Below, one piece after another: positions 581 to 26,034 of a stretch of DNA of 64,000 nt. Each line of letters starts with the position of its first letter. The first letter of the stretch is position 1. The notes below the pieces were generated by a model. That model was given only the letters and a program-made list of their open reading frames with translations. It was not told the origin of the DNA and made no database searches. A program made the position numbers and the translations under genes. The DNA comes from a bacterium. GTDB taxonomy: Bacteria; SZUA-182; DTGQ01. The DNA lies in assembly GCA_040755755.1 (NCBI GenBank), contig JBFLZW010000002.1, forward strand, positions 66,397-130,396, written 5' to 3'.

Positions 581-799
581 TCGTTTTGTACGGCAGCCAC
601 CCATTTTTTCACCCCAGGTGAGCTGCCGGGAAATCAGACCAGCTTTTTATAAGCGGTAATTTATTGCCAGACGGTGCTTTTCCCGACCATCAAGGTTGTA
701 ATGTAATCTTCCTGATTACAGACAATGACCAATACCAGAGATAAATTATGTTTTAACAATACCAGGAGACAGCCATTTTGTCAAGACCAGTTTTTTTAG

Positions 800-867
800 T
801 GGTCAGTGATCAGTGATCAGTGGTCAGAAAAAAAGAAAGTCTTTATTCTGGCTCCTGGCTCCTGATT
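800..867. repeat. Heptamer-based intergenic repeat, family A (CAGTGAT / CTGGCTC-CTCCTGA modules)
   Basis: ggtcagtgatcagtgatcagtggtcag - A-run - ctggctcctggctcctga. Related mosaic copies lie at 9488-9612 and 15868-15963. Confidence 0.6.
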
Positions 868-4241: not shown

Positions 4242-4277
4242 AGAGAACTATCCTTTCTTATCTCCTTATTGTGTACT

Positions 4278-4979
4278 TTACTGGATATTATTATTATACG
4301 ATAGCTCGACTACCGTGTCAGCAATTCTCTTCACCTGATCCAGGTAATGGGAAACCGTCAGGATGGTGCAATGTTCTTTAATGTTCAGCAAAAGCTCCTC
4401 AATGACAGCTCCGGCTTTGCTATCCAAAGATGAAGTGGGTTCATCGAGGAGCAGGATTTCCGGTTCCAGAACCAGTGCCCGGGCAATACAAAGGCGTTGC
4501 TGCTGCCCGCCGGATAGAGCAAGTGCACTGTCTGCCAGCCGGTTTTTAACTTCCTCCCACAGATGGGCATTCTTCAGAGCCTGTTCAACCTTGTGACCGA
4601 TGAGACTTTTGTCTTTTATTCCAGCCAGTTTTAAGGGAAAGGCGACATTTTTATAAATGCTCATCAGCAAAGGATTGGGCACCTGAAAGACCATGCCGAC
4701 CGTCCGCCGTAATTGCGGCAGGGGATAGGACCGGCTATAAATATCATGGAAATTCCCATTAAATTTAATTTCTACCATCCCCTTCATTTTAGCCCCTGGT
4801 ATGCCTTCCCACAATCGATTGAGGGTCATCAGAAAGGTCGATTTACCGACCCCTGAAGGACCGATGATGGCAGTGATGGAATTTTCGATAAACTGGACTG
4901 TAATATCGCGAAGGACATAGTGATCATGGTATGAAAAATAGAGATGCGCAGTTTTTATCTTTACCGTCTTCTCATCCAT
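4278..4979 (-). CDS. pstB: Phosphate ABC transporter ATP-binding protein PstB
   Basis: Walker A GPSGVGKST, signature LSGGQQQRL, Walker B LLLDEP. The start was taken at the internal MDEKTVKI. Confidence 0.9.
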   Translation of the reverse strand: MDEKTVKIKTAHLYFSYHDHYVLRDITVQFIENSITAIIGPSGVGKSTFLMTLNRLWEGIPGAKMKGMVEIKFNGNFHDIYSRSYPLPQLRRTVGMVFQVPNPLLMSIYKNVAFPLKLAGIKDKSLIGHKVEQALKNAHLWEEVKNRLADSALALSGGQQQRLCIARALVLEPEILLLDEPTSSLDSKAGAVIEELLLNIKEHCTILTVSHYLDQVKRIADTVVELSYNNNIQ

Positions 4980-4984
4980 AGGGC

Positions 4985-5866
4985 TCAGACGCGATAGAGG
5001 ATTTGATAGGCCAACTGCCTTTTGATGACAAAGGCAAGCAGAAAGAGAACAATGCAAATAGTCAGGAGAATGAGCGAAGCTCCATATCCGGTCAAAAGTT
5101 CCCGGGTGTTTGAATATTCGGAGGAGATGTAATAGATGTAAAATGGGAGCGCTTCATAGGGTGAAAGCAAAGACCTGGGCAATCCGGCTGTAGCCACGAC
5201 GCCGGTGAGCATGATCACGGCTGTGTCTTCTGCACAACGGCCGATGGCCAGGACAAGGCCGCTCAGGATGCCTGAGAGCGATTGAGGAATGAGGACATAA
5301 AAGATGTTCTGAAGCTTTGTGCCCCCCAGAGCCAGGGCTGTAAGGCGTGTCTTTAAAGGCAGGCTTTCCAGAGAAACCTGAGTTGCGCGAATGATATATG
5401 GCAAGACCAAAAAAGAGAGGGATAGACTGGAGATCAAAAGGGAGGGATAGATGCGCTCGGAGTAGTGTTTATGCAGGAAAACAGCCAGGGCAAATCCTGA
5501 GAGACCAATCACGATCGAAGGAATGCTGGCCAGAATATCGAAAAAGAGATTGAAAAAGGTTTTTGTTTTACCCTGAGCATACTCCGCCAGGTAGATGCCG
5601 CAAGCCAGTCCCACCGGAGCCGCCCAACTGACAGATAAGACTACGAGACAGATGGTCCCTGCCATAGCCGGAAACAGGCCGTGAAAGACCTGTTTCCGGA
5701 AAATGAGCGCTTCGAGAGGCCTGGTTTCACCAAAGACAAGCTGCATATTTACCGTGCCAATACCTTTGAAAATCAGATAACCGATAATATACGAAATAAC
5801 GCTTACCAGAGTTATTCCACATATCCACGAAAAGACTACCACCAGCTTCTCTCCTGCCCGGTTCAC
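4985..5866 (-). CDS. pstA: Phosphate ABC transporter permease PstA
   Basis: Polytopic permease adjacent to pstB and pstC. Confidence 0.85.
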   Translation of the reverse strand: MNRAGEKLVVVFSWICGITLVSVISYIIGYLIFKGIGTVNMQLVFGETRPLEALIFRKQVFHGLFPAMAGTICLVVLSVSWAAPVGLACGIYLAEYAQGKTKTFFNLFFDILASIPSIVIGLSGFALAVFLHKHYSERIYPSLLISSLSLSFLVLPYIIRATQVSLESLPLKTRLTALALGGTKLQNIFYVLIPQSLSGILSGLVLAIGRCAEDTAVIMLTGVVATAGLPRSLLSPYEALPFYIYYISSEYSNTRELLTGYGASLILLTICIVLFLLAFVIKRQLAYQILYRV

Positions 5867-6729
5867 CTTTTTTCTCTCCCATCCCCTGATCCTGACAACG
5901 ACCGGGCTCCCAAAACAAGAATGGTCGTAAACAGATAAAGCACTATACCACAGGCAAAGATGGATTTAAATTCCAGACTTTCATAATCAGCGGCGAACAC
6001 CAGGGCGATGTGAGATGTCAAAGTTCTGGCTGAATCCAGAACCGAGCCGGGAATCTGAATTGCATTTCCGGCAAGCATCAAGGCAATAAGGGTATCGCCG
6101 AGAGATCGCCCCAGGGCAAGAATGAACCCGGTCAGGACACCCCTAAAGGCGCAGGGCAGGATGACATACAGAAATTTTTGCACTTCGGTTGCGCCTAAAG
6201 CGTCAGCAGCATCACGGTAGGATTTTGGCACATGATCAAAGCTATCGGTGAAAAACAGGATCATGGTCGGAGAAATAAGGACCGCCAGCATCAATGAAGC
6301 GGAGAGGATGCACATTCCTGAACCGCTCTGGAACATTTCCCTGATTCTGGGAACCAGAAGGAACACGCCTACAAACCCATACACAACCGTGGGTATGCCT
6401 GTCATAAGCTGAACCGCTTTTCGCAGGAACCGGCTGAATATTGCGGGACCAAGAACACTGATCAGTGCGGAACACCCCAAACTCAGCGGAAAAGCGAAGA
6501 CCAGGCTCAAACCGGCAATAGTCAGCGTGCCCGCGATCATGGGATAAATACCGTATGAACCGGAAGCGGGTTCCCACGGCTGAGCCAGGAGGTCAAAAAA
6601 ATGTCCCCCTCTGATGAGAGGGAGACCCAGGAACACCATGAATCCCAAAATGATAATAGTTAGAGAAACACTGACCACTGCCGAGAGGAGAAACAGTTTC
6701 TCGGCGATCTTTTCACGGATGGTAACCAT
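5863..6729 (-). CDS. pstC: Phosphate ABC transporter permease PstC
   Basis: Polytopic permease with 4-nt overlap onto pstA. Confidence 0.85.
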   Translation of the reverse strand: MVTIREKIAEKLFLLSAVVSVSLTIIILGFMVFLGLPLIRGGHFFDLLAQPWEPASGSYGIYPMIAGTLTIAGLSLVFAFPLSLGCSALISVLGPAIFSRFLRKAVQLMTGIPTVVYGFVGVFLLVPRIREMFQSGSGMCILSASLMLAVLISPTMILFFTDSFDHVPKSYRDAADALGATEVQKFLYVILPCAFRGVLTGFILALGRSLGDTLIALMLAGNAIQIPGSVLDSARTLTSHIALVFAADYESLEFKSIFACGIVLYLFTTILVLGARSLSGSGDGREKR

Positions 6730-6744
6730 GTGAATGGGCTGTAA

Positions 6745-7581
6745 TCATTTGACCGGGATAAAGCCATTGCTTTCAACGATCTTCTGACCTTCGGGCGTGA
6801 AAAGATAATCGATGAACTTTTTCGTCAGACCTGAAGGCTGGCCTTTGGTATTGCTGTACAACCCTCGACTGACGGTGTACTTGCCCTGTTTTACGTTATC
6901 CAGAGTTGGCAATACCCCATCGAAAGCTACCGGGGCCACCGTCTCATCGATATGGCCCACAGAGACATAGCCTATGCCATAAGGATCCTTTGCTATGGCT
7001 GATTTCATTGCTCCGTTGGAGGCGACAAAATTGGCTTTGGGAGTGATCGCCCCCTTGTCGAGGGCCTTTTCCCAGAAGACTTCACGGGTACCGCTTGCCT
7101 CGTCTCTTGTATAGACATTAATTCCCTTATCTGCTCCGCCAAGGAGTTTCCAGTTGTCGATCTTCCCTGAGAAGATATCAATAACCTGAGCTTTGGTCAG
7201 CTTTTTCACTTTGTTATCCGGATGATTAATGATACCTACACCGTCAATGGCCCACTGGAATATCGTGAGATTATACCTGGTAATTTCCTCATCGGTGGGT
7301 TTGCGTCCGGAATTCCCTATCTGGACCAGACCTTCCCCTACCTGCTTGATTCCAACCCCCGAACCACCACCGGCAATGGTTATCTGAATATCCGGATTGA
7401 CCTCCATAATCTTTTTGGCCGCCTCCTGCATCACCGGAATATGAGCTGTACCTCCGGCTATTTTCAAGGTTCCCTTTTCATCCCTGAAGGAGTCCAGTTC
7501 TCCAGCCTGTAAACTCATACCTGCGCCAATGATTAAACAAATCGTCATCGACAATGCAATCAGAATATACTTTCGCTTCAT
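6745..7581 (-). CDS. pstS: Phosphate-binding protein PstS
   Basis: Signal peptide followed by a PBP-like domain. RBS aggtaaggagag. Confidence 0.85.
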   Translation of the reverse strand: MKRKYILIALSMTICLIIGAGMSLQAGELDSFRDEKGTLKIAGGTAHIPVMQEAAKKIMEVNPDIQITIAGGGSGVGIKQVGEGLVQIGNSGRKPTDEEITRYNLTIFQWAIDGVGIINHPDNKVKKLTKAQVIDIFSGKIDNWKLLGGADKGINVYTRDEASGTREVFWEKALDKGAITPKANFVASNGAMKSAIAKDPYGIGYVSVGHIDETVAPVAFDGVLPTLDNVKQGKYTVSRGLYSNTKGQPSGLTKKFIDYLFTPEGQKIVESNGFIPVK

Positions 7582-7633
7582 GACACTCTCTCCTTACCTG
7601 ATGGTGATAATCGTAGAACTGGCAATACCAGTT

Positions 7634-8779
7634 TTAACTGTTATTTCTCATATAAGACTTCAGGACCTTGATGGCAATATCGATCTCCCGCTCGGTGTTA
7701 AAGTAGGAGAGGGAGAACCGGACCGTGCCGTGGGGAAAGGTGCCCAGGGTCTGGTGCGCCAGAGGCGCGCAGTGCAGGCCCGGCCTGGTGCATATTTCCC
7801 ACTCGCGGTCAAGGTAATGGGAAACCTCGGAAGCCATTGCCCCTTTCAGATTGAACGATACTACAGCCACCCGGTCGGCTTCGGGAGCATAAACCTGAGC
7901 TTCATCGATTTGCTTCAGCTTATCGAGCAGATAGTGTGTCAACTGATGCTCCCGGTCGATGATCTGCTCAAGCCCTTCGGCCAAAATGAATTCAATGCCG
8001 GCTGCAAGACCCGCGAATCCCGGAGTATTGACTGTCCCGGCCTCGAATTTATCCGGTGGAAAGTCCGGCTGGACGGTCTTTTCCGACAGGCTGCCGGTGC
8101 CGCCGCACAGAAAAGGCTCCAAGGTATCAGTATCCCTGATGATCAGAGCCCCGGTTCCCTGCGGTCCGAAAAGATGCTTATGCCCGGTTATGGCCAGAAA
8201 ATCGAATGGGGTCCTGGCCAGATCGATCTGTATTGCCCCGGCACCCTGGGCAGCATCGACCAGAAGCTTCACCCCCCTGGACCGGCTTACCTGGTATATC
8301 CCATCCAGGTCAAGCTTTGTGCCGCATACATTGGAAGCGGCGGTAACCGCAATGAGCCTGGTGTCAGCACTGATGGCTGCTTCGATCTTTTCCGCAGATA
8401 CCAGGCCGTTTCTGTCTCCCTCGACAATGGTGAGCCTGATCAGGCCCTTGTCTTTCAGGCGGTTGAGCGGCCTCAGAACGGAATTATGCTCCATCGAGGT
8501 GGCTATCGCCTCACCCCCTCCCGATGCCAGCGTCCCGTAAATAGCCAGATTCAATGCCTCGGTCGCATTTTTGGTCAGGATGATTTTTTCCGTTTCGGGA
8601 AAGTTGAAAAGCTCACCAATGGCCTCACGTGCCCGATAGATAATCTCGGCAGCCCTGATGGACAGAGAATGCGAAGACCTGCCCGGATTGGCATTGGCAT
8701 GCTTCAGACAATCGACCATAGCCTCGATCACTGATGGAGGCTTGGTGCCCGAAGTGGCTGCATGGTCAAAATAAATCAT
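7634..8779 (-). CDS. Cysteine desulfurase (aminotransferase class V, NifS/SufS-like; possible selenocysteine lyase)
   Basis: MIYFDHAATSGTKP, and the PLP-lysine context ITGHKHLFGPQGTGAL. Confidence 0.85.
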   Translation of the reverse strand: MIYFDHAATSGTKPPSVIEAMVDCLKHANANPGRSSHSLSIRAAEIIYRAREAIGELFNFPETEKIILTKNATEALNLAIYGTLASGGGEAIATSMEHNSVLRPLNRLKDKGLIRLTIVEGDRNGLVSAEKIEAAISADTRLIAVTAASNVCGTKLDLDGIYQVSRSRGVKLLVDAAQGAGAIQIDLARTPFDFLAITGHKHLFGPQGTGALIIRDTDTLEPFLCGGTGSLSEKTVQPDFPPDKFEAGTVNTPGFAGLAAGIEFILAEGLEQIIDREHQLTHYLLDKLKQIDEAQVYAPEADRVAVVSFNLKGAMASEVSHYLDREWEICTRPGLHCAPLAHQTLGTFPHGTVRFSLSYFNTEREIDIAIKVLKSYMRNNS

Positions 8780-8819
8780 GGCTGGTTCTCTGTTTGTGTT
8801 CTTTGCTGAAAGTGGGTAC

Positions 8820-9467
8820 CTAAATCGTAATCACTTTGGCTGATTTGAGCAAAGTTTCGGAAATATCGTACATGTTGGAAATCCTGCCAGCGCCAAGCTC
8901 CTGGGTGAGATTGAAGTAATTCAGGCAGGTTCCGCAGACCAGAAGCTCAATCCCTTTCTCTTCAAGCTCCTGCAGGCAGGACAGGGTCGGGGCTCCTTTA
9001 ACCGCCAGTTTCACTCCGCTGTTCATGAAACAGATGGTTTTCGGCTGGACGGACAGATCCCGGAGAGTAGCGACAAACGCATCGAGAAGGTTCATGCCCA
9101 GCTCATCACTGCCGGACCCGATCCGGTCCCTGGTGATAAAAACCGCCGTCCCGGTTCCGGAAGGATGATCGGTGCAGGAGTAATCTTCAGGCGCAAGCTC
9201 CACGGCTGACAGAGCGGTTTCCCGGCCAGCAGCCGGACTCTTTTGATCAGAGCCGCCCCTGGTATAAATGTGAAATTCGTTCCCTCGCTCTTCCACCCGG
9301 TCAATTTCAACCCCATTGCGCGTAAGAAACCGGGTGACATTCTCCTTCGAGGCCGCGCTGCTGACCATCACCACAAGAGGCTGACCAGCCGCCTGCTCGA
9401 AAGCTTCCTTTGTTTTCACTACTGGTTTGGGACAATCCAAACCCCGTGCATCAACCGTTATAGCCAT
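8820..9467 (-). CDS. YedF-like selenium/sulfur-metabolism protein (TusA-like N-domain with CPxP, fused to a DsrE/DsrF-like C-domain)
   Basis: N-terminal ARGLDCPKPVVKTKEAF (TusA CPxP motif). The C-terminal ~120 aa are DsrE-like. Confidence 0.7.
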   Translation of the reverse strand: MAITVDARGLDCPKPVVKTKEAFEQAAGQPLVVMVSSAASKENVTRFLTRNGVEIDRVEERGNEFHIYTRGGSDQKSPAAGRETALSAVELAPEDYSCTDHPSGTGTAVFITRDRIGSGSDELGMNLLDAFVATLRDLSVQPKTICFMNSGVKLAVKGAPTLSCLQELEEKGIELLVCGTCLNYFNLTQELGAGRISNMYDISETLLKSAKVITI

Positions 9468-9487
9468 GCGAAATCTCCTTATGTTCC

Positions 9488-9612
9488 TGCTGACTCCCAG
9501 CTCCTGACTTCTGACTACTCTTCACTGGCCACTGATCACTGGCCACTGGTCACTCTCTCCTGACTCCTGGCTTCTGGCTTCTGGCTCCCGACTCCTGACT
9601 CCTGACTCCTGC
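9488..9612. repeat. Heptamer repeat, family A copy (overlaps the 3' end of the activase ORF)
   Basis: ctcctgacttctgact...cactggccactgatcactggccactggtcact...ctcctgactcctggcttctggcttctggctcccgactcctgactcctgactcctg. Confidence 0.6.
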
Positions 9613-10370
9613 TTTAAAGCATACACTGCCGCACCAAGCGCGCCGATAATCTGGGGATTTTCCGGCACAATCAGGTTTCCTCCCAGCCGATCCTCCAGAA
9701 GTTTTACCAGACAGGGATTCAGGGCTCCGCCACCGGCAAAGAGTATTGGCCGCCTGCGGCCAAGCCGGTTGATCATGGTCTCTATCCGCTCGACTACGGA
9801 TTGATGAACCCCCAGGGCAATGCTTTGAGGGTCTTCGCCTTTAGCCAGCAGTGAAATCACTTCAGATTCAGCAAAAACCGTGCACATGCTGGTAACCTTG
9901 ATCAAACCGCCAGCCGTAAGAGCGAAAGCTCCAAACTGGCCGATGTCAATCTCGAACGAATGAGCCATGATCTCCAGAAACCGGCCGGTTCCGGCAGCAC
10001 AGCGGTCATTGATGCCGAAATTGTCAAAGGAACCATTCCCGTCCAGAGCAATGACCTTGGTGTCCTGCCCCCCGATATCGATCACCATCCGGACATCCGG
10101 GTACAGGTAATGCGCACCCAGGGCAAAGGCTTTGATCTCGGTTATGGTCTGATCAGCCAGGTCTTTCCGGGCAAGATGCCGTCCATATCCTGTGGCCACA
10201 ATGCCGGGCCGCCCGGCCGCTTTCATAATGCCTTCTTTTTCCAGGGCGCGGCGAAGCTTTTCCAGAGGATGAACACCGCCATCCATAACCTGAAAGGCAA
10301 CCAGGCCACTCTGGTTCAAAATTACATACTTGGCCGTCCGGGAACCAAGATCAATGCCTATGGAAGTCAT
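9522..10370 (-). CDS. BadF/BadG/BcrA/BcrD-type ATPase (CoA-substrate-specific enzyme activase, HgdC-like)
   Basis: MTSIGIDLGSRTAKYV and VIDIGGQDTKVI actin-fold ATPase motifs. The last ~30 codons are encoded by the family-A repeat. Confidence 0.8.
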   Translation of the reverse strand: MTSIGIDLGSRTAKYVILNQSGLVAFQVMDGGVHPLEKLRRALEKEGIMKAAGRPGIVATGYGRHLARKDLADQTITEIKAFALGAHYLYPDVRMVIDIGGQDTKVIALDGNGSFDNFGINDRCAAGTGRFLEIMAHSFEIDIGQFGAFALTAGGLIKVTSMCTVFAESEVISLLAKGEDPQSIALGVHQSVVERIETMINRLGRRRPILFAGGGALNPCLVKLLEDRLGGNLIVPENPQIIGALGAAVYALKQESGVRSREPEARSQESGESDQWPVISGQ

Positions 10371-10398
10371 ACACTGTGGCATTGTATCATATCTTATC

Positions 10399-11673
10399 TT
10401 ACGGTTTAATCCGCTCCAGAAATGCCTCGATCCTTGTCTGAATCTGCCCCGCGTCTTCGGCGGTGTAGTCAGTCTCGATCTTCAGGACCGGAAAGCCTGC
10501 CTCTTTCAGCGCCTTTTCAACCCTGGCGTACTCCACGTTATAGGTATGGCAGAACTGAAGGGTGTTATAGATCACGCCATCGGCATGATACTCCTGAGCA
10601 TACTGGATTATCTGTTCGGTTCGCTCATGGTTCGGAGTAAAACAGGAGCAGTTTATCGACAGGTATCTCTGAGCCAGAGCATCCAGTTGGGCATTCAAAT
10701 CCGCCGCCGACTCATCGACCAGGGTTTCGAAATAGCGGGTCCCCGTGCAGGCTTCCTCGACCACTACCGCTGCCCCCAGGCTTTCGATGATATGATGCAG
10801 TTTCCAGTTGGGCACCACACTCGGACAGCCGGAAAGCATAATGCGGGGGGCATCCTTGGCAAACGGGCTGATGCCTTGTGCAATCCGGCCGGTCAGCTCT
10901 CCGGTCAGTTTATCCACCGAAGCGGTAAACCGGGCAACATCATCGTAAAACGCAACCTGTGAAATCAGCAGGGCATCTTTTCCACTGATGGGTGAGGGCT
11001 GACACTTTCGGGTTTCATACAGCCTGGCCAGGGCCCTCCTTTTATTGTTCATGAGCTCGATGGCTTTTTTCACCGCATCAAAGCTGATTTTCGTCCTTCC
11101 CGCCTCCTCCAGCATTTTCACCAGCCTGTCAAGCTCTGCGCGATATACTCCCCGGCCTGCATCATCCTTCCTGTGGGGGACCTGCACGACCCTGGTGGGA
11201 ACGAAATCGTTTAAAATTTCCCAGGCTTTCTTTTTGCCGTCGCAGGTGGTTTCTCCGAGCAGAAAGTCAGCGGATTCAAAATAGGGGCAGATTTTCGCCA
11301 GCTTAAACCCGACCGATGACTTTATCAGCGGGCAGATGTTTCTCGGCAGGTATTCTTCCGCCTTGGAGATGGTGAGGTCCGCCCCGCCGCACAGGCCGAT
11401 CGGAAGACCTCCAGCCGCAAGGATCAACTCATCGGGGATGAAAAGACAAAAAGCTCCGGCAATGAATCCTCCCCTGGCCTTGTGCTCCAGGAGCTCCCTG
11501 ATACGAAGACCATGAACCTCGCTCAGGACAAAGTCAAAATACTCCATAGCTTCGGGCCGGTTATCCTGCTTCAGGTAAATGTCAGAATAGACCTGCCCAA
11601 GAACGTTCAGAAGGTTGCAATGCGGATCAAGATCAATATTCAGGCTTCTCCACATATCGTCGTAATTACTCAT
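10399..11673 (-). CDS. 2-hydroxyacyl-CoA dehydratase family protein (HgdA/HgdB-like component)
   Basis: A 424-aa protein with dehydratase-family Cys-containing regions, directly upstream of the activase. Confidence 0.7.
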   Translation of the reverse strand: MSNYDDMWRSLNIDLDPHCNLLNVLGQVYSDIYLKQDNRPEAMEYFDFVLSEVHGLRIRELLEHKARGGFIAGAFCLFIPDELILAAGGLPIGLCGGADLTISKAEEYLPRNICPLIKSSVGFKLAKICPYFESADFLLGETTCDGKKKAWEILNDFVPTRVVQVPHRKDDAGRGVYRAELDRLVKMLEEAGRTKISFDAVKKAIELMNNKRRALARLYETRKCQPSPISGKDALLISQVAFYDDVARFTASVDKLTGELTGRIAQGISPFAKDAPRIMLSGCPSVVPNWKLHHIIESLGAAVVVEEACTGTRYFETLVDESAADLNAQLDALAQRYLSINCSCFTPNHERTEQIIQYAQEYHADGVIYNTLQFCHTYNVEYARVEKALKEAGFPVLKIETDYTAEDAGQIQTRIEAFLERIKP

Positions 11674-11690
11674 TATCTGCCCTCGTTACA

Positions 11691-11957
11691 TTAGATGAAT
11701 TTGAATTTCTTCTTCTTTTCCGCCTCATCATCCCTCTCCCACCGAAAAATCTGATCGATCTCCACCTGGCTGTCGGTGAGGATTTTTTCAATCTCTTCCC
11801 TTTCCGGCCAGGGCACCTTGCAGCAAAAACCGCAGTTGGAGCTGAATTCCCTCGGCACCGGGATCATTTCCGGTTTTCTGCCGCTCTTGTCAAGCACCCG
11901 TTTGGCCTTCAGGGCAAAATGGGTGGTGTGAAAGGTGATGATTGCATAGACTGCCAT
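11691..11957 (-). CDS. DUF3343 (putative Se/S carrier-like) small protein
   Basis: MAVYAIITFHTTHFALKAKRVLDKSGRKPEMIPVPREFSSNCGFC fits the DUF3343 pattern. Start taken at the ATG with GAGG 8 nt upstream. Confidence 0.65.
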   Translation of the reverse strand: MAVYAIITFHTTHFALKAKRVLDKSGRKPEMIPVPREFSSNCGFCCKVPWPEREEIEKILTDSQVEIDQIFRWERDDEAEKKKKFKFI

Positions 11958-12099
11958 ATACAAGCCTCGGAATGAGGAAAAATCAAAGCTGCACCAGGAT
12001 ATTGCTAATACTCGATAATACCCAATAGTTTTGGGAAGTCAAGGGCATTATTGAAGAAATCTATAATGCCTATAGATGTATTCAATATCACGGTGGTGC

Positions 12100-12855
12100 T
12101 TATTTCCGTTCCGCGGCAGAATCGCCGGTGATGGATAGAACTACAGAGATAACCACCTCCGGTGTGGTTTTACTGTCTGTTTTAACAACTACCTGACCAC
12201 TCGTAAGGGAGCTGTTGTCCATTGCTTTTGCTGACACAATAATCGTCAGGGATTCGTTCGGTTTGAGACTTGCCGGCAGTTTGGTCTGCTCCGATGCTGC
12301 TTTGGCTGTAACAGCAGCGGCAGGAGTGGTTTCAATCGATAAAATCGACATGCTCTCCTGGCCGATATTCTTCAGCACAACCTCCTGAGTGGCATCCTGG
12401 TCCTTTGCTGCCCGGTTGAAATAAACATTGGCAGGAGTGGCTTCCAGATCGACTTTGACTAATGCTTCAATAGTTATTTGCGTAATTGGATTAACCGGGT
12501 CATTGGAATGGACATAGATGACTTTCTGTTGTTTCCCCTTGCGATGGGCGGAATTGAAAGTGACTTTAATCTGCCCGGTCTCACCCGGATTGATTGTTTT
12601 TTGAGAAAGCACAGCAGCGGTGCATCCGCAGGATGTCTTTACTTGTTCGATGTTCAGCGCCTGGTCTCCGGTATTCTGAAAGGTAAAAACATGGGTAACC
12701 GCTTTATTCTGGTAAATTTGCCCAAAATCGAACGAGGCATTGGAGAATGCGATACGGGGGGCGGCTGCGGCAGGTGCCGGACAGAATACGGACAACACTA
12801 TGGGAAAACTTATCAGGAGGACTGATAAGACTATTAAGGTTCTATTCTTTTTCAT
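12100..12855 (-). CDS. Secreted DUF1573-domain protein (two copies)
   Basis: Signal peptide, then the hallmark SCGCT motif (VKTSCGCTAA). Confidence 0.7.
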   Translation of the reverse strand: MKKNRTLIVLSVLLISFPIVLSVFCPAPAAAAPRIAFSNASFDFGQIYQNKAVTHVFTFQNTGDQALNIEQVKTSCGCTAAVLSQKTINPGETGQIKVTFNSAHRKGKQQKVIYVHSNDPVNPITQITIEALVKVDLEATPANVYFNRAAKDQDATQEVVLKNIGQESMSILSIETTPAAAVTAKAASEQTKLPASLKPNESLTIIVSAKAMDNSSLTSGQVVVKTDSKTTPEVVISVVLSITGDSAAERK

Positions 12856-14806
12856 GGTTTATCTCTCCTTTACTTTTTGGGCCTTTACTTTTCGGGCCTC
12901 TCAGTATCCGAATATCGCCGATCCGCATGGTGAAACCAATGGAATCGAAGTATTCCAGAATCTGAATGGTTTTTATTCGGCCCAGATCCATTACTCTATC
13001 ACGAAAATCGATAACGGTAAGACTCCCTTCCTTTTGGATATATGCCTTCACCATCTCCCTGAGCTCATGGAGAGGTTGGCTATGGATGATGGTATTTGGT
13101 GCGATTCGAATGACAACACTCTGATCTATGAGCATCTTTAATAATCTGTCCACCTCCTCCCCGGCGCAATTGATATTTTGATAAAGTTGACTTATGGGCA
13201 GCGGTCTGTAACCGCTGGATAGAAGCGCCCTTTCAATTTCGCTGATAACCTTCTTCTGCCATGAACTGAACGACAGGCTATGATTGGCAAGCCTGATAGC
13301 GGGACCGTCGATCGCTATTGTCTGCCTCATCTCAAGGTCCCTGAGCAGGTGATGGAAAAGCCGGCTGTCCATTTCCCCTGCTGTCTTTGACTTGAGCAGT
13401 TCTCTCCCCATACCTTTTTCAAGAGGGTTTTGGCTGTGAAAGTCTTTCAGGGCAGCGATAATTTTTTCTTTGATATGTGTTACCTGCCTGGTGGCAATAA
13501 AGAATTCCTCATCATCAAGACAGTAAATAACGCCTTCACTCTTTAACCGGGCAAGGATATCGACGAGTTCTGACCGAGTAAGGGCGGTCTTTCGTAACAG
13601 TTCACTCTGACTGCAAGGATGGAATTGGTATCGTGAAAGTGTCTCGATGATGAAGTCCCTGAATTTTCCCTGTTCCAGGTGCTCGATCCGAGTGACTCTG
13701 CTTTTACCTTCTGAGGCACTGTACCGCCTGGGGTAAGTATCCAGGATAACTCCTCCGCCAATGGTACGGGAAGGGCTGAGAGACCGGATAATATATCTGT
13801 CGAATACCCGAGGCGAAGCCTTTTCTTCCAGCCTGAACTGGACAACAGCCATTTCACCGGGTTGAATCTTATCCCTGTCCATGCAGATCACCCTGGCTAT
13901 AATCTCGGTAGTACCGGTATGGAGGCGTACCCTGGCTTTCGTGGACAAAGGAGATGCGTTCGATTCCAGGTATCGGAGTCTGGCATCCAGTATGCCGGTG
14001 GGCATGAGGGATTCCGGCGGGGCGATGACATCTCCTCTCTTGACCTGGGAGGTGGCGATACCGGCCAGGTTAAAGCCGACCCGCTGTCCGGCATGGGCTT
14101 CTTCGACCCACTGGTTATGCACCTGAAGTCCACGGATTTTGACTTTATAACCTTCGGGATATACCATTGCTATGGCTCCGGAACTTACAGCACCATTTAC
14201 CAACGTGCCGGTAGCTATTGTGCCGTAGCCTGCTACTGAAAAAACCCGATCCACGGGAAGCCGGAATTCGCCCCTCTCAAGTTTGGTTTTCTCAACCTTG
14301 CCGGTAAGCTCCATCAGGGCCGTCTTCAATTGATCGATTCCCTCTCCGGTCCGGCATGAGCAATCGATTACCGCTGCCTCCCGGAGGAAACTCGGCTCAA
14401 CAAGCCGGGCGATTTCCCCGTGAATCAACTCCAGCCAGTCCCTGTCCACCAGATCGATCTTGTTGACTGCCACAAGGCCGTGTCTGATTCCCAGCAGGGA
14501 AAGAATATCAAGATGCTCGCTGGTCTGGGGCATGGGGCCGTCATCGGCTGCAATAACCAGTATGGCCATATCGACGCCGGATATGCCTCTGAGCATATTC
14601 TTGATAAATTTTTCGTGACCCGGACAATCGACAATACTCACCACCTGTCCATTGGGAAGCCGGCAGGGTGCAAAACCTGATTCTATCGATATTCCCCGGA
14701 CCTTTTCCTCTTTCAGCCGATCGGTGTCTATACCAGTGATGGCCTTGGTCAGAGCGGTCTTGCCATGGTCAATATGCCCGGCCAAGCCTATAACCAGATT
14801 TTTCAA
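12842..14806 (-). CDS. selB: Selenocysteine-specific elongation factor SelB
   Basis: GTPase motifs GHIDHGKT, DCPGH, NKID, then winged-helix C-terminal domains in a 654-aa protein. TTG start. The C-terminal GPKSKGPKSKG comes from a short tandem repeat. Confidence 0.9.
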   Translation of the reverse strand: MKNLVIGLAGHIDHGKTALTKAITGIDTDRLKEEKVRGISIESGFAPCRLPNGQVVSIVDCPGHEKFIKNMLRGISGVDMAILVIAADDGPMPQTSEHLDILSLLGIRHGLVAVNKIDLVDRDWLELIHGEIARLVEPSFLREAAVIDCSCRTGEGIDQLKTALMELTGKVEKTKLERGEFRLPVDRVFSVAGYGTIATGTLVNGAVSSGAIAMVYPEGYKVKIRGLQVHNQWVEEAHAGQRVGFNLAGIATSQVKRGDVIAPPESLMPTGILDARLRYLESNASPLSTKARVRLHTGTTEIIARVICMDRDKIQPGEMAVVQFRLEEKASPRVFDRYIIRSLSPSRTIGGGVILDTYPRRYSASEGKSRVTRIEHLEQGKFRDFIIETLSRYQFHPCSQSELLRKTALTRSELVDILARLKSEGVIYCLDDEEFFIATRQVTHIKEKIIAALKDFHSQNPLEKGMGRELLKSKTAGEMDSRLFHHLLRDLEMRQTIAIDGPAIRLANHSLSFSSWQKKVISEIERALLSSGYRPLPISQLYQNINCAGEEVDRLLKMLIDQSVVIRIAPNTIIHSQPLHELREMVKAYIQKEGSLTVIDFRDRVMDLGRIKTIQILEYFDSIGFTMRIGDIRILRGPKSKGPKSKGEINHEKE

Positions 14807-14863
14807 TGGAAGGTCACCCGACTTTTTATCATCTCTACTCTTGTGTCATAGGGAGAGAGGTAA

Positions 14864-14954
14864 AGAGGGTAAGGGGAATCGAACCTCCTACGGCCCTTGC
14901 ACAGGCCGACCAGCGGATTTGAAGTCCGTGGGGCACACCAGTACCATTACCCTC
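14864..14954 (-). tRNA. selC: tRNA-Sec (anticodon UCA)
   Basis: 91 nt. The 8-bp acceptor stem GAGGGTAA/TTACCCTC, the anticodon loop cUUCAaa, a long variable arm and the GGTTCGATTCC T-arm are all present. It sits immediately upstream of selB. Confidence 0.75.
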
Positions 14955-15505
14955 GGTCATTCTCGATCATGACAGCTCGACAGCGTAAACAGTGTAAAAA
15001 CTTTGGAAAATGATAAGTAATATTAAATATATCAGAAACTTACCGTGACCGGGTGATATAAGGAAACATGCTCGAAGTGGAGTGAGGATTGGAAGATGCA
15101 TGCAGTTGCGGACCGGATCGAATATAGCCGACCTGCATTCAGGGATTGAAAAACGGATGGAATTTAAAAATGAAGTCTGATTTTTTTGAAAAGATTGCAC
15201 TATAGGTAAAGATAGATATGAGAAAAGCATAATGGGTTTCCTGTTATTGCCCCGACCACCGGTCAGAGTTACCTGATACAGAGTCAATATTGTCCAACAA
15301 ATCCGTGTAAGTGAACCTTTTTCAAGTACATAATTGTTCCTCTCTTAAAATTTGGAATCAATTTATGGAAACTACCGCTTCTTTACCCTACCGACATTCA
15401 TTAATGAATACAATTAAACCTGTTAATAGAGATTCCTTAAAAATATAGGGGATATTTTTACCATAACCTGGATTATACGTCAATAAGGAATTTTCAATTT
15501 TCATC

Positions 15506-15534
15506 TTGACATCGAAAATGCATGGAATTAAAAT
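15506..15534 (+). promoter_or_regulatory. Sigma70-type promoter (TTGACA-17-TAAAAT)
   Basis: ttgacatcgaaaatgcatggaattaaaat, located about 35 nt upstream of the riboswitch aptamer. Confidence 0.6.
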
Positions 15535-15567
15535 GAGCCCAAAAGCCGAAATTGCTGATAATTGCAT

Positions 15568-15630
15568 AAAGGCGAGGGAGTTCCGCCATAAACCGTTCCG
15601 GCCAGGGCCGGAGCTAATGACTCCTACGAG
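15568..15630 (+). promoter_or_regulatory. Fluoride riboswitch (crcB RNA motif)
   Basis: GGCGAGGGAGUUCCGCCAUAAAC...GGAGCUAAUGACUCCUAC. The B. cereus crcB aptamer is GGCGAUGGAGUUCGCCAUAAACGC...AGCUAAUGACUCCUAC, with the pseudoknot GGAGU/ACUCC. Confidence 0.85.
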
Positions 15631-15682
15631 CAGGTAAATATACCCTTGGGAGGAGTTATACAGTTGCTGGCAATCAAACTTT

Positions 15683-15723
15683 GAGCTCTTACCAGGGCCT
15701 AGTACCTGGTGAGAGCTTTTTTT
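15683..15723 (+). terminator. Rho-independent terminator (riboswitch expression platform)
   Basis: gagctcttaccagg-gcctagta-cctggtgagagc followed by ttttttt. Confidence 0.7.
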
Positions 15724-15785
15724 ACCCCGTAGCAGGAAGAACCTGTAACGGTAGGGGGGATTTATCTCAAAGGGAGGAACAAGAA

Positions 15786-15929
15786 ATGGCAGAAATCAAA
15801 GAAGTGAAGGCAAGAGAGATGTTATACCATTTCTCACCTGAAATTGAGCATAAACCGGCCAAAGGAGTCAGAATACAGAATACAGAAGTCAGAAGTCAGG
15901 AGAAACGAAAGCCTTATTCTGAATTCTGA
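15786..15929 (+). CDS. Small ORF (47 aa) downstream of the fluoride riboswitch; its 3' end runs into the family-A repeat
   Basis: Strong RBS aaagggagga then ATG. Translation MAEIKEVKAREMLYHFSPEIEHK..., with no recognisable family. Confidence 0.3.
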   Translation: MAEIKEVKAREMLYHFSPEIEHKPAKGVRIQNTEVRSQEKRKPYSEF

Positions 15930-15963
15930 CTCCTGAATTCTGACTCCTGACTCCTGAATTCTC
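15868..15963. repeat. Heptamer repeat, family A-like (CAGAATA / CAGAAGT / CTGACTC / CTGAATT units)
   Basis: cagaatacagaatacagaagtcagaagtcaggag ... ctgaattctgactcctgaattctgactcctgactcctgaattctc. Confidence 0.6.
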
Positions 15964-16202
15964 TACTTATGCTGCAGTTGAATGTCGAAAAATGGTATTA
16001 GCTCAGGGGGAAACATACGACTTGTCCTGGATTCAGGCGATGAATTTCCATAATGCGTTCTTGTTCACTTCGGTTAATGAAGCCCTTCGCAGCCTGGTGG
16101 CAATTATCAAGAGGCAAAGCAAGGCCGAACAGGGGCGTGGAGAGGGGCGCTCGTAAACTGGAGAAAAGAAGAAAAGAGAAGAAAACGGTAATTCACTTGA
16201 GA

Positions 16203-16619
16203 TTATTTTTCGGTCTCATTTTTCAGCATGGCCTCGGCAAAATCGAGGAAATCCTGCAAATGTTCCTCTACAATCCGCCTGACAATGTCAAGGTTCAGTG
16301 CCTGATAGTCGTGAACAGCAATGTTTCGGAACCCTGTCATGGCCATCATGCGTTCTGCCAGCCCTTTGGTTATCAGACCGACCCGCTGAAGCAAAGTGAA
16401 TGCATCCCTGCTTTCCTGGGGAATTCCCAGCCGGCGGAGGCGGATCTCATGCATGGCCAGGTCTATGGCTGCCTCACAGGCCCTCTGGATATTTAAAATT
16501 ATCGAGTCCTGTTTGGTATAATTCTCATAGAGGTTTTTCTCGTCTTCTCCATATTCTTCACGTATGCGGGCTATGCATCGCTCAATGGTGGCTGCTTTAT
16601 TGAGTTTTACGTCGTCCAT
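16203..16619 (-). CDS. HepT-like HEPN toxin (DUF86)
   Basis: Rx4-6H motif FRNIAVHDY. Start taken at MDDVKLNK. Overlaps the end of the upstream NTase gene. Confidence 0.75.
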   Translation of the reverse strand: MDDVKLNKAATIERCIARIREEYGEDEKNLYENYTKQDSIILNIQRACEAAIDLAMHEIRLRRLGIPQESRDAFTLLQRVGLITKGLAERMMAMTGFRNIAVHDYQALNLDIVRRIVEEHLQDFLDFAEAMLKNETEK

Positions 16620-17019
16620 AAACTGTTCCCCGGCTCTGGATATCCTGAATAATCTCCCGGCGCTCCTCATTCAGACGAGCGTAGGCACTGTAAACGTAAT
16701 CTTCAAAGCGTTCTCTCTGTCCCGGATCCCCCTCGTACCAGCACTGTCCTGTAGAAACGACCTGCATCCGCAATACGGTGGAAGCCTTTCGCAGGTCAAC
16801 GAGATCAACCTCCCGCCTGAGCGCTCCGGCCAGGTGCCGGGCCATCGACCATCTCTCCCAGGGGTCCAGGGGGTGCCGGGGAAGGATCGCCAGGTCGATG
16901 TCACTCTCCGGCATCATCTCCCCTTGCCCCGCTGACCCGAATACATAGATGGCCACAAGATCCGGGTATTTCTCCCGAAGGAGTCGAACGATAAGTTCCT
17001 GTTGAGTTTCTTTGACCAT
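16597..17019 (-). CDS. MntA-like nucleotidyltransferase antitoxin
   Basis: FGSAGQGEMMPESDIDL (GSx10DxD) NTase motif. Confidence 0.75.
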   Translation of the reverse strand: MVKETQQELIVRLLREKYPDLVAIYVFGSAGQGEMMPESDIDLAILPRHPLDPWERWSMARHLAGALRREVDLVDLRKASTVLRMQVVSTGQCWYEGDPGQRERFEDYVYSAYARLNEERREIIQDIQSRGTVYGRRKTQ

Positions 17020-24972: not shown

Positions 24973-26034
24973 ATGAAGAAGTGCAATTCCCTGGGTCGGC
25001 TGCTGGTAATTTCAACCGCTTATACTGTGCTCTTATTCCTGCTGACTATGACTATCTCGCCTGGCAACTGCCAGGTACCGTCTTCCTACCCATATACCAC
25101 GTATCCTTATACAACGTATCCGACCGGCACTACGAGCGGATATCCCTACACGGTGTATCCGAGCCAATCTGCTACATCTTACTCTTACTCACCGCTGACA
25201 GGTTACACTGTTAATCCCTATACTCAGGCGACTGCCGCGGTCCCTTATGGGACCACATACGGGACTACCTATCCGCAGTATGGTACTTCCTATACTACGG
25301 TGCCATCCTACGGCACTTCGGCCTATGGCCTGCCTGTATATGGTACTTCCGGATATAATATCCTGGTGATCGCTGCTCCTTCGAATTCTTATACCAATCC
25401 CTTATCCTCGTATCCTGCCATAAGTACCTATCCAGGCACATATCCTTTTGATGGCAGAATAGCGGCCATTTATCTGCCGACGCAGAGCACCTATCCTGCG
25501 TATCCGACATACCCTGCGTATCCTGCGTATCCGACGACGCCTGCGTATTCGACCTATCCGACCTATCCTGCGTATCCGACGACGCCTGCGTATTCGACAT
25601 ACCCGACCTATCCGACATACCCGACATATTCTACGTATCCGACCTATCCGACATACCCGACGACACAGACGTATCCGACCACACCTACCTATTCAACGAG
25701 TGTATCGGGCGGGTGGAGCGGTTCCTGGGTAAGTAACGGAACCCAGGGAGGCGCTTCTCTTACCCTGACTCAGAGCGGAACCACGCTGACTGGCACGATA
25801 AACCTTACATCTTCGAATGGTCAGGCCAAATTGAACGCCAATGTCAATGGAAGCATGAGCGGTACTACCCTGCAGCTTTGGGCAACTATTAATGGAGGTA
25901 CGGATATCTTCAACCTGAGTATCATCGGAAACATTAACGGAACCGTGCTGAACGGCAATTACCGGATTACCAACAACAGCAGTATCGAGCTGGAATCCGG
26001 GACGCTTAACCTGGTCAAATCATCGCTCTATTAA
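24973..26034 (+). CDS. Secreted Tyr/Thr/Pro-rich repeat protein (TYP(A/T)YP tandem repeats) with a C-terminal Thr/Asn/Gly-rich beta-like domain
   Basis: Signal peptide, then PAYPTYPAYPAYPTTPAYSTYPTYP... encoded by tandem DNA repeats at 25490-25680. RBS ggtaaggagatcaag. Confidence 0.7.
   Translation: MKKCNSLGRLLVISTAYTVLLFLLTMTISPGNCQVPSSYPYTTYPYTTYPTGTTSGYPYTVYPSQSATSYSYSPLTGYTVNPYTQATAAVPYGTTYGTTYPQYGTSYTTVPSYGTSAYGLPVYGTSGYNILVIAAPSNSYTNPLSSYPAISTYPGTYPFDGRIAAIYLPTQSTYPAYPTYPAYPAYPTTPAYSTYPTYPAYPTTPAYSTYPTYPTYPTYSTYPTYPTYPTTQTYPTTPTYSTSVSGGWSGSWVSNGTQGGASLTLTQSGTTLTGTINLTSSNGQAKLNANVNGSMSGTTLQLWATINGGTDIFNLSIIGNINGTVLNGNYRITNNSSIELESGTLNLVKSSLY

What the first reader, a model, noticed from the sequence alone, without database searches (positions are those of the whole stretch)
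15506..15963. Complete fluoride riboswitch unit (promoter, crcB aptamer, terminator) with no fluoride-resistance gene downstream
The aptamer matches the crcB consensus almost base for base (GGCGA.GGAGUUC.GCCAUAAAC ... GCUAAUGACUCCUAC). It has a consensus sigma70 promoter 35 nt upstream and a textbook intrinsic terminator 50 nt downstream. Instead of crcB, eriC-F or enolase, the only downstream ORF is a 47-aa peptide (MAEIKEVKAREMLYHF...) with a strong RBS, and its 3' end is overrun by a family-A heptamer repeat. Next come convergent HepT/MntA genes. Either a novel small fluoride-responsive protein is regulated here, or the riboswitch is a remnant whose cargo gene was displaced by the repeat insertion.
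Basis: partly seen in the sequence, partly recalled or inferred. Interest (0 to 1): 0.6.

Follow-up and report, generated by a model that had tools for sequence, protein, structure and literature searches.

The report
Fluoride riboswitch with truncated enolase cargo
This is a genuine and apparently intact fluoride-sensing RNA switch, but the gene it once controlled (a spare copy of the fluoride-sensitive enzyme enolase) was cut off after 13 codons by a repeat-filled palindromic insertion, so the "47-aa peptide" is a leftover and not a new protein.

Summary
Rfam places a fluoride (crcB-motif) aptamer at 15562-15633 (+) with 47.6 bits (threshold 34). A TTGACA-17-TAAAAT promoter sits at 15506-15534. 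A 14-bp intrinsic terminator with a T7 run sits at 15683-15723. A 47-codon ORF with a strong RBS follows (ATG at 15786). HepT/MntA lie convergent beyond it.

The ORF is not a new protein family, and no true homologue was found in three large searches. Its first 13 residues, MAEIKEVKAREML, match the N-terminus of riboswitch-controlled enolases recovered from metagenomes (MASIKSVRAREIL, MVAIKSVHAREIL and others). It ranks 1 of 3647 start-codon 13-mers in the window, with P about 3e-8. The similarity stops at 15824, which is exactly the left end of a 175-nt palindromic element (15824-15998) that carries the heptamer arrays. A 25-codon tail of an IS256/MULE-like transposase follows at 15998-16072. 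No enolase or crcB occurs elsewhere in the window, and three relatives lack a riboswitch at this site.

The expression platform looks intact but non-canonical. An anti-antiterminator, an antiterminator and a displaced terminator form a relay that predicts a fluoride-ON transcriptional switch.

Verdict: an orphaned riboswitch–enolase unit. It is a known kind of element and of modest interest.

The parts
15506..15534 (+). Sigma-70-type promoter, TTGACA-17 nt-TAAAAT. The predicted transcription start is near 15541.
   Evidence: scores it 11/12. One search finds only 3 sites this good in 128 kb of both strands, against 0.8 expected.
15562..15633 (+). Fluoride riboswitch aptamer (crcB motif). P1 pairs 15571-74 with 15584-87. 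P3 is an 8-bp stem within about 15593-15612. The pseudoknot pairs GGAGU (15577-81) with ACUCC (15620-24).
   Evidence: RF01734, 47.6 bits against a gathering score of 34, full-length model match. There is one deviation at a conserved U (G15576) and one inserted C (15583).
15607..15671 (+). Anti-antiterminator helix. The aptamer's 3' half (15607-25: the P3 3' arm and the pseudoknot tail) pairs with 15651-71. It forms only when the aptamer is not locked.
   Evidence: It is in the MFE of the free leader. The duplex energy is -24.0 kcal/mol, reached by 2 of 5000 dinucleotide shuffles.
15644..15697 (+). Predicted antiterminator. 15644-57 (CCUUGGGAGGAGUU) pairs with the terminator's 5' arm at 15684-97, giving 12 bp with a 2x2 internal loop.
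   Evidence: It is the MFE at transcript ends 15698-15712 when the aptamer nucleotides are blocked. The energy is -18.2 kcal/mol, reached by 76 of 5000 shuffles; none of the 5000 matches both helices.
15683..15723 (+). Intrinsic terminator: a 14-pair stem (15683-96 with 15705-18) and a run of 7 T (15717-23).
   Evidence: The stem energy is -25.7 kcal/mol. The U-run begins 88 nt after the aptamer tail, against 24 nt in the two comparators that have a classical terminator.
15664..15684 (+). Mini-ORF TTG CTG GCA ATC AAA CTT TGA (MLAIKL*). It is preceded by GGAGGAG (15650-56), and its stop codon abuts the base of the terminator stem. This belongs to the rival or auxiliary mechanism only.
   Evidence: Read directly from the sequence. 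The SD-like tract and the TTG both lie inside the anti-antiterminator helix. No comparative support is available.
15772..15777 (+). Shine-Dalgarno sequence GGGAGG, 8 nt before the ATG at 15786.
15786..15824 (+). Enolase N-terminal remnant, 13 codons: MAEIKEVKAREML.
   Evidence: It ranks 1 of 3647 start-codon 13-mers in the window (score 28.75, next best 14.0). The exact random-peptide P is 2.6e-8, or 5e-5 when the ARE positions are left out. It was the best tblastn hit of a real enolase (L084) in the region.
15786..15929 (+). The 47-codon chimeric ORF: the enolase remnant followed by a read-through into the palindromic element.
   Evidence: No homologue, Pfam match or PDB match was found.
15824..15998 (.). 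A 175-nt imperfect palindromic (MITE-like) element with 12-nt terminal inverted repeats (ATACCATTTCTC / GAAAAATGGTAT). The heptamer arrays (15863-15904 and 15914-15962) form its core.
   Evidence: inverted repeats I1-I5. folds it at -67.8 kcal/mol, z -6.0. describe the heptamers. No second copy of its arms was found.
15998..16072 (+). Remnant of the last 25 codons of an IS256/MULE-like transposase. It lies inside the 54-aa ORF at 15992-16156.
   Evidence: 76% identity to residues 331-355 of P0125 (358 aa), E 1e-7 against the whole window; 12 of the 14 DNA differences from L095 are synonymous third-position changes; cluster member P0123 is named 'MULE transposase domain-containing'; weak IS256 match, E 0.002.
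16203..17019 (-). The convergent mntA (16597-17019) and hepT (16203-16670) type VII toxin-antitoxin pair. This is context and is not regulated in sense by the riboswitch.
   Evidence: HepT_toxin 162 bits, MntA_antitoxin 117 bits.
14865..14954 (-). tRNA-Sec, divergent from the riboswitch and followed by selB. It serves as the synteny anchor.
   Evidence: The same pair is found in relatives, without the riboswitch.

Best explanation
This is a bona fide fluoride riboswitch transcription unit that has lost its cargo.

Original arrangement: a strong promoter, a fluoride aptamer and a terminator-based expression platform controlled an extra enolase gene. That is a standard fluoride-response arrangement, because enolase is inhibited by fluoride.

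The truncation: the enolase gene was cut after codon 13. From 15824 the sequence is a 175-nt palindromic, heptamer-repeat element, followed by the last 25 codons of an IS256/MULE-like transposase and then a convergent HepT/MntA module. The "47-aa peptide" is therefore 13 enolase codons fused to a read-through of the inserted element. It is a relic, not a gene family.

The switch as it now stands (inferred from thermodynamics only):
- Without fluoride, the aptamer's 3' half pairs with 15651-71 (anti-antiterminator). The 14-bp terminator then forms and transcripts end near 15723.
- With fluoride, the Mg-F-locked pseudoknot holds the aptamer tail. 15644-57 is then free to pair with the terminator's 5' arm (antiterminator), and RNA polymerase reads through into the relic ORF.

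The regulatory part shows little decay, which suggests that the truncation is recent.
For: What is shown:
- Aptamer at 47.6 bits, above the gathering score.
- Promoter and terminator.
- A metagenome scan found 11 loci with the aptamer tail followed by an enolase start. Eight of them carry an Rfam-threshold aptamer immediately upstream.
- Their enolases start M-x-x-I-K/x-x-V-x-A-R-E-I-L, in the same register from the start codon as MAEIKEVKAREML.
- The ORF's 13-mer ranks 1 of 3647 in the window. P is 2.6e-8, or 5e-5 when the ARE positions fixed by my search pattern are excluded.
- The similarity ends at 15824, which is the terminus of the palindrome.
- The transposase tail follows.
- No enolase or crcB lies elsewhere in the window.
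- No homologue of the 47-aa product exists.
- An independent assembly has the same post-breakpoint sequence.

What is inferred:
- The three mutually exclusive helices rest on folding energies and shuffle tests.
Against: - Only 13 residues carry the enolase signal. The invariant DSRGNPT motif that should follow is absent, so identification rests on a short though highly significant and positionally exact match.
- No closely related genome with an intact riboswitch–enolase allele was found. Relatives with 74%, 71% and 64% SelB identity have no riboswitch at this locus.
- The ancestral state is therefore inferred, not observed.
- The expression-platform model has no covariation support, because no homologous leaders exist.
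- At full transcript length the terminator (-25.7 kcal/mol) is more stable than the antiterminator (-18.2 kcal/mol), so antitermination would have to be kinetic.
- The aptamer carries G at a position that was U in every other aptamer I inspected. It may already be impaired.
- The near-perfect preservation of the promoter, aptamer, platform and RBS could also mean the unit is kept for a new purpose.
Confidence: 0.75

Rival explanations
1. The 47-aa ORF is a genuine, novel fluoride-induced small protein. It might be a micro-protein built on an enolase N-terminal tag and maintained by selection.
For: The RBS is strong and the ORF is open behind an intact ON-switch. A gene caller called its fragment on the Logan contig. 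The regulatory elements are not decayed.
Against: No homologue was found in any search. The only hit is a repeat artefact. Residues 14-47 are encoded by the left arm, the heptamer arrays and the spacer of a palindromic element. Residues 1-13 are explained by enolase ancestry.
Confidence: 0.06
2. The unit has been exapted. Fluoride-induced read-through runs unimpeded into the convergent hepT-mntA operon and produces an antisense RNA or transcriptional interference. This would couple fluoride stress to the toxin-antitoxin module.
For: No further terminator-like site exists on the + strand between 15724 and 17200. hepT and mntA are convergent and start 274 nt after the ORF's stop. The regulatory parts are preserved.
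Against: This rests purely on geometry. The long heptamer hairpin may stop or stall transcripts. The juxtaposition is explained by mobile-element traffic, given the transposase remnant. No comparable arrangement was found elsewhere.
Confidence: 0.07
3. Read-through is gated by translation rather than, or in addition to, an RNA antiterminator. Fluoride would free the SD-like GGAGGAG and the TTG at 15664. A ribosome translating the 6-codon mini-ORF would stop at the TGA (15682-84) and physically cover the terminator's 5' arm.
For: The SD-like tract lies 7 nt before the TTG, and both are sequestered in the fluoride-free fold. The stop codon overlaps the first stem base of the terminator.
Against: The purine tract and the TTG are fully accounted for by pairing requirements of the anti-antiterminator and antiterminator helices. 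TTG is a weak start codon. No homologous leader exists to test conservation of the mini-ORF.
Confidence: 0.1
4. The aptamer is already dead. The U-to-G change at the conserved GAUGG position and the extra loop nucleotide abolish fluoride binding, so the unit is a constitutively terminating fossil.
For: All the other aptamers whose P1 loop I read, 8 of the 14 seen here, have U at this position. Rfam's consensus shows it in upper case. A cargo-less switch is under no selection.
Against: The score is still 13.6 bits above threshold and higher than 7 of the 14 comparators. All helices, the pseudoknot and the other conserved positions are intact. Fluoride contacts Mg ions held by backbone phosphates rather than by bases (PMC8752731).
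Confidence: 0.15

Closest known systems
Fluoride riboswitch (crcB motif, Rfam RF01734), e.g. the transcriptional ON switch of Bacillus cereus crcB
   Same: The aptamer architecture is the same: P1, P3, a pseudoknot and a conserved tail. The predicted logic is also the same: fluoride binding prevents formation of an intrinsic terminator.
   Different: In the classical switch the terminator's 5' arm overlaps the aptamer tail, with the U-run about 24 nt after the tail in comparators L085 and L086. Here the terminator is self-contained, 88 nt downstream, and is linked to the aptamer through two intermediate helices. There is one substitution at a conserved U. No intact gene follows.
Fluoride riboswitch–enolase operons (stated in PMC11139923; eight metagenomic examples here, among L084-L093)
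   Same: A riboswitch is followed by an RBS and an ORF that starts with the enolase N-terminal motif M-x-x-I-x-x-V-x-A-R-E-[IVM]-L, in the same register.
   Different: Only 13 codons remain. DSRGNPT and the Enolase_N and Enolase_C domains are absent and are replaced by a palindromic repeat element.
'Tug-of-war' transcriptional riboswitches (Bushhouse et al., bioRxiv 10.64898/2026.06.17.733018)
   Same: The aptamer and the terminator do not share nucleotides.
   Different: The tug-of-war design needs the ligand-stabilised structure immediately upstream of the terminator, where it acts sterically. Here 55 nt intervene, and they contain complementary relay helices.
Short tandemly repeated heptamer (STRR-like) and MITE-like palindromic elements, and IS256/MULE insertion sequences
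   Same: There are heptamer arrays in inverted orientation, terminal inverted repeats, and a location at gene ends. There is also a transposase C-terminal remnant 76% identical to a family whose members occur mostly as fragments.
   Different: No second copy of the element's arms was found. No target-site duplication was identified. The transposase family assignment is weak (IS256 E 0.002, plus a name given by a source).

Membership tests
Fluoride riboswitch (RF01734) | Covariance-model score at or above Rfam's gathering threshold over the full model | tested here: met
   47.6 bits against 34, model positions 1-64 of 64.
Fluoride riboswitch (RF01734) | P1 and P3 helices, plus a pseudoknot between the P1 loop and the 3' tail | tested here: met
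   The alignment shows them. GGAGU (15577-81) is complementary to ACUCC (15620-24), and the P3 stem has 8 bp.
Fluoride riboswitch (RF01734) | All highly conserved nucleotides present | tested here: inconclusive
   All match except G15576, where the consensus and all 8 comparators whose P1 loop I read have U. There is also one inserted loop nucleotide.
Fluoride riboswitch (RF01734) | Binds fluoride and changes gene expression | not testable with these tools
   This needs in-line probing, in vitro transcription, or a reporter with and without NaF.
Fluoride riboswitch (RF01734) | An expression platform that competes with the aptamer | tested here: met
   Three mutually exclusive helices are predicted, and no shuffle out of 5000 matches both relay helices. 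This is thermodynamic evidence only; there is no covariation.
Fluoride riboswitch (RF01734) | An intact downstream gene that mitigates fluoride toxicity | tested here: not met
   Only a 13-codon enolase remnant remains. No crcB or enolase was found in the window; CLC-F (eriC-F) was not specifically probed. No + strand gene lies within 6 kb.
Enolase (for the 47-aa ORF) | N-terminal motif M-x-x-I-x-x-V-x-A-R-E-[IV]-L in register with the start codon | tested here: met
   Rank 1 of 3647, P 2.6e-8.
Enolase (for the 47-aa ORF) | The DSRGNPT motif and the Enolase_N and Enolase_C domains | tested here: not met
   No Pfam hit even at E up to 10. tblastn with real enolases finds nothing beyond residue 13. 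The ORF is therefore a remnant, not a member.
IS256/MULE transposase (for the ORF at 15992-16156) | Similarity to a transposase, with a DDE catalytic domain | tested here: not met
   Only the last 25 residues are similar, and the catalytic region is absent. The family name itself rests on a source's own name and a weak NCBIfam hit.
HepT/MntA type VII toxin-antitoxin | Adjacent HepT RNase and MntA nucleotidyltransferase genes above the curated cut-offs | tested here: met
   HepT_toxin scores 161.9 bits (cut-off 60) and MntA_antitoxin 117.4 bits (cut-off 60).
Leader-peptide transcription attenuator (for the mini-ORF) | A translated short ORF whose ribosome position decides terminator formation, conserved among relatives | not testable with these tools
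   The sequence geometry fits, but no homologous leaders exist and translation cannot be assayed here.

The most novel reading that the evidence does not exclude
The cargo-less but intact switch has been co-opted. Fluoride-induced read-through would produce a chimeric 47-aa micro-protein, an antisense transcript across the convergent hepT-mntA toxin-antitoxin operon, or both. That would link fluoride stress to toxin activation. In addition, the relay-type platform with a displaced terminator, possibly assisted by a 6-codon leader ORF, would represent an undescribed expression-platform variant for this riboswitch class.
Probability: 0.08. Interest if true: 0.65.

Novelty: new member of a known kind. 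Interest (0 to 1): 0.3.

Why it matters
- It resolves an apparent anomaly. A textbook fluoride riboswitch with no resistance gene turns out to be a riboswitch–enolase unit whose cargo was truncated by mobile or repetitive DNA. There is no evidence here for a new fluoride-response protein.
- It is a clean, datable-looking example of a regulatory RNA outliving its gene.
- It is a caution for riboswitch-guided gene discovery: short ORFs behind orphan riboswitches should be checked for N-terminal remnants of known cargo families.
- The expression platform (aptamer, anti-antiterminator, antiterminator, displaced terminator) is a compact natural relay design. It would be easy to test in vitro and might interest riboswitch engineers.

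Tried and rejected
- Homologues of the 47-aa product. The word-indexed search found none. Exact look-ups found none. Full HMMER over 1.84 billion representatives gave one hit, P0129, which is a tandem-repeat protein with 'SLYHFSPDDEKD' repeated about 20 times. I rejected it as an artefact. PDB and Pfam gave nothing, even at E up to 10.
- Synteny. The selB and tRNA-Sec anchors in relatives (L001 64%, L082 74%, L083 71% SelB identity) show no riboswitch, enolase or crcB at the site. No intact ancestral allele could be recovered.
- Metagenome scan for M-x-EIKEVKARE: zero hits.
- Probes for enolase and CrcB written from memory found nothing in the window or the loci. I repeated the enolase search with real enolases, again with nothing.
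- More enolase remnants after codon 13, including frameshifted ones, an internal-deletion alignment to residues 45-65, and 'GETYD' against the enolase SGETED motif. None was significant. The GETYD segment turned out to be a transposase tail.
- The 12-nt terminal repeat of the palindrome as a repeated MITE end. No other convincing copies were found.
- The tug-of-war architecture was considered and rejected, because the aptamer is not adjacent to the terminator.
- Ren et al. 2012 and Baker et al. 2012 are not held in the library. The role of the substituted U could therefore not be checked.

Full report
**1. Observation**

- Rfam's fluoride model (RF01734) matches 15562-15633 on the + strand over its whole length. 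The score is 47.6 bits against a gathering score of 34. It is the only riboswitch in the window; the other hit is tRNA-Sec at 14865-14954 (-).
- A TTGACA-17-TAAAAT promoter lies at 15506-15534. Sites this close to consensus are rare. There are three in 128 kb of both strands, against 0.8 expected from shuffles.
- A 14-pair hairpin followed by seven T lies at 15683-15723. It is the only terminator-like site on the + strand for more than 1.4 kb downstream.
- The ORF runs 15786-15929, with its ATG at 15786 and a GGGAGG 8 nt upstream.
- Heptamer arrays at 15863-15904 and 15914-15962 are inverted relative to each other and cover the ORF's 3' half.
- HepT and MntA are convergent and pass the curated cut-offs.

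Two caveats apply to "almost base for base". The aptamer has G15576 where the consensus has U (GAUGG). All the other aptamers whose P1 loop I read also have U there; that is 8 of the 14 detected. The P1 loop also has one extra nucleotide.

**2. The 47-aa ORF is not a protein family**

- The word-indexed search of 5.8 billion clusters found no candidate.
- Exact look-ups found nothing.
- Pfam and PDB gave nothing, even at E up to 10.
- The exhaustive HMMER search of 1.84 billion representatives returned a single protein. It is a 1675-aa tandem-repeat sequence in which 'SLYHFSPDDEKD' recurs about twenty times. This is an artefact of repetition.

**3. What the ORF is**

Its first 13 residues looked to me like an enolase N-terminus, and I treated this only as a lead. 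[quoted passage not shown]

To obtain real, unbiased comparators, I scanned the metagenome collection for the aptamer tail ATGACTCCTAC, followed 66-126 nt later by codons for A-R-E-x-x-D-S-R-G-N-P-T.
- The scan gave 11 loci.
- Eight of them carry an Rfam-threshold fluoride aptamer immediately upstream of the enolase.
- Their enolases begin MVAIKSVHAREIL, MASIKSVRAREIL, MFSIKSVRAREIL, MTTIKSLHAREVL, MTEIVDVHAREIL, MPGIKTITAREIL and so on. The window ORF begins MAEIKEVKAREML, in the same register from the start codon.

I scored the ORF's 13-mer against eight such N-termini.
- It ranks first of all 3647 start-codon-initiated open 13-mers in six frames of the window. Its score is 28.75 and the runner-up scores 14.0.
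- It still ranks first when the three positions fixed by my search pattern (ARE) are ignored.
- The exact probability for a random peptide of the window's amino-acid composition is 2.6e-8, or 5e-5 without ARE.

With real full-length enolases as queries, nothing beyond residue 13 is detectable in the region in any frame, and no enolase occurs anywhere in the 64 kb. A CrcB probe also found nothing.

**4. What replaced the gene**

- The enolase similarity ends with codon 13 at 15822-15824.
- From 15824 to 15998 the sequence is a 175-nt imperfect palindrome. It has 12-nt terminal inverted repeats and further symmetric blocks, with the heptamer arrays at the centre. It folds at -67.8 kcal/mol, z = -6.0.
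- Immediately after it, 15998-16072 encodes LAQGETYDLSWIQAMNFHNAFLFTS. This is 76% identical to residues 331-355 of a 358-aa protein (P0125), with E 1e-7 against the whole window.
- Cluster mates of P0125 include a Candidatus Magnetoglobus protein named 'MULE transposase domain-containing', and many members are 55-73-aa fragments.
- P0125 weakly matches the IS256 transposase model (E 0.002).
- At the DNA level, 12 of the 14 differences from a homologous fragment (L095) are synonymous third-position changes. The segment therefore derives from real coding sequence.

Hence the 54-aa ORF at 15992-16156 is a transposase tail, and the 47-aa ORF is an enolase head fused to a read-through of the palindromic element.

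An independent assembly of the same organism (Logan SRR25621602) is identical through the breakpoint up to 15853. It breaks there, in the palindrome's left arm, 10 nt before the heptamer arrays. The truncation is therefore not an assembly join at the repeats.

**5. Evolutionary context**

- Three relatives keep tRNA-Sec, selB and the downstream selenium-related genes. Their SelB identities are 74%, 71% and 64%. None has a fluoride riboswitch at this position.
- In the 74% relative, the polysaccharide-export genes follow LysR. In the window they lie beyond the riboswitch. The riboswitch region therefore sits at a rearrangement breakpoint.
- No intact riboswitch–enolase allele from this lineage could be recovered, so the ancestral state is inferred.

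**6. How the switch is built (inferred)**

Unlike the classical design, the terminator does not overlap the aptamer. Its U-run starts 88 nt after the aptamer tail, against 24 nt in the two comparators that have canonical terminators.

Folding shows a relay of three mutually exclusive helices.
- In the unconstrained leader, the aptamer's 3' half (15607-25) pairs with 15651-71 and the terminator forms.
- When the aptamer nucleotides are blocked, to mimic the fluoride-locked pseudoknot, the minimum-energy structure at transcript ends 15698-15712 pairs 15644-57 with the terminator's 5' arm at 15684-97.
- The duplex energies are -24.0 kcal/mol (anti-antiterminator, reached by 2 of 5000 dinucleotide shuffles) and -18.2 kcal/mol (antiterminator, 76 of 5000). 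No shuffle reaches both. The terminator stem is -25.7 kcal/mol.
- The terminator is the more stable structure, so antitermination would have to be kinetic. This is usual for transcriptional riboswitches (PMC8752731).

The purine tract GGAGGAG is followed 7 nt later by a TTG, which opens a 6-codon ORF. Its TGA touches the base of the terminator stem. This allows a translation-coupled variant of the mechanism. However, both features are already explained by base-pairing needs, and no relatives exist to test conservation of the mini-ORF. I keep this as a low-probability rival.

**7. Comparison with known systems**

- The aptamer is a member of RF01734.
- The riboswitch–enolase pairing is known.
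- The relic status is ordinary genome decay driven by repeats and mobile elements.
- The relay platform is a variant within known principles.
- It is not a 'tug-of-war' riboswitch, because the aptamer is not adjacent to the terminator.

**8. Verdict**

- The 'novel small protein' alternative is not supported.
- Three things remain open: whether the aptamer still binds fluoride given the U-to-G change, whether the relay works as predicted, and whether read-through has acquired a secondary role such as antisense transcription into hepT-mntA.
- Interest is modest at 0.3. The finding is a new member of a known kind.

Noticed in passing
window 15824-15998: A 175-nt imperfect palindrome with 12-nt terminal inverted repeats and the heptamer arrays at its core (z -6.0). 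Its two ends coincide exactly with the end of the enolase remnant and the start of the transposase remnant. This is what adjacent deletions from both ends of a mobile element would leave. No second copy of its arms was found.
   Followed up: partly
window 798-864, 9500-9611, 15863-15962: STRR-like heptamer tandem arrays (AGTGATC, CTGGCTC, CACTGGC, CTCCTGA, AGTCAGA). The array at 9523-9611 also overruns the 3' end of an ORF (9522-10382, -).
   Followed up: no
window 26598/26639, 32568/32610, 37101/37249, 46173/46320, 31007, 47577: Short octamer arrays CGCAGAGA and TCTCTGCG occur as inverted pairs in several places. They appear to be a second repeat family.
   Followed up: no
window 25477-25680: Nested 9-, 18-, 27- and 45-nt tandem repeats lie inside ORF 24973-26034 (+).
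   Followed up: no
window 3345-14954; L081, L082: A selenium-related cluster: tRNA-Sec, selB, DUF1573, Se_S_carrier, HGD-D/BcrAD, TusA/DsrE, a class V aminotransferase, an ABC transporter and LysR. It is conserved in a relative with 74% SelB identity. The polysaccharide-export genes lie on the opposite side in the two genomes, so there is a rearrangement breakpoint next to tRNA-Sec.
   Followed up: partly
L085, L087, L088, L091 (metagenome loci): Each carries two or three Rfam-threshold fluoride aptamers within a few kb (L091 has three). These look like multi-riboswitch fluoride-response islands. In L084, L091 and L093 the leaders show a second hairpin (CUCUGCGA...UCGCAGAG) next to the SD, which suggests relay-type translational platforms.
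   Followed up: no
window 14955-15505: About 550 nt of AT-rich sequence with no convincing ORF lies between tRNA-Sec and the riboswitch promoter.
   Followed up: no
window 15551-15564 and 15661-15674: In the fluoride-free MFE, the 5' leader upstream of the aptamer pairs with the segment just after the SD-like tract. This encloses the whole aptamer region in a long-range helix and could reinforce the OFF state.
   Followed up: no
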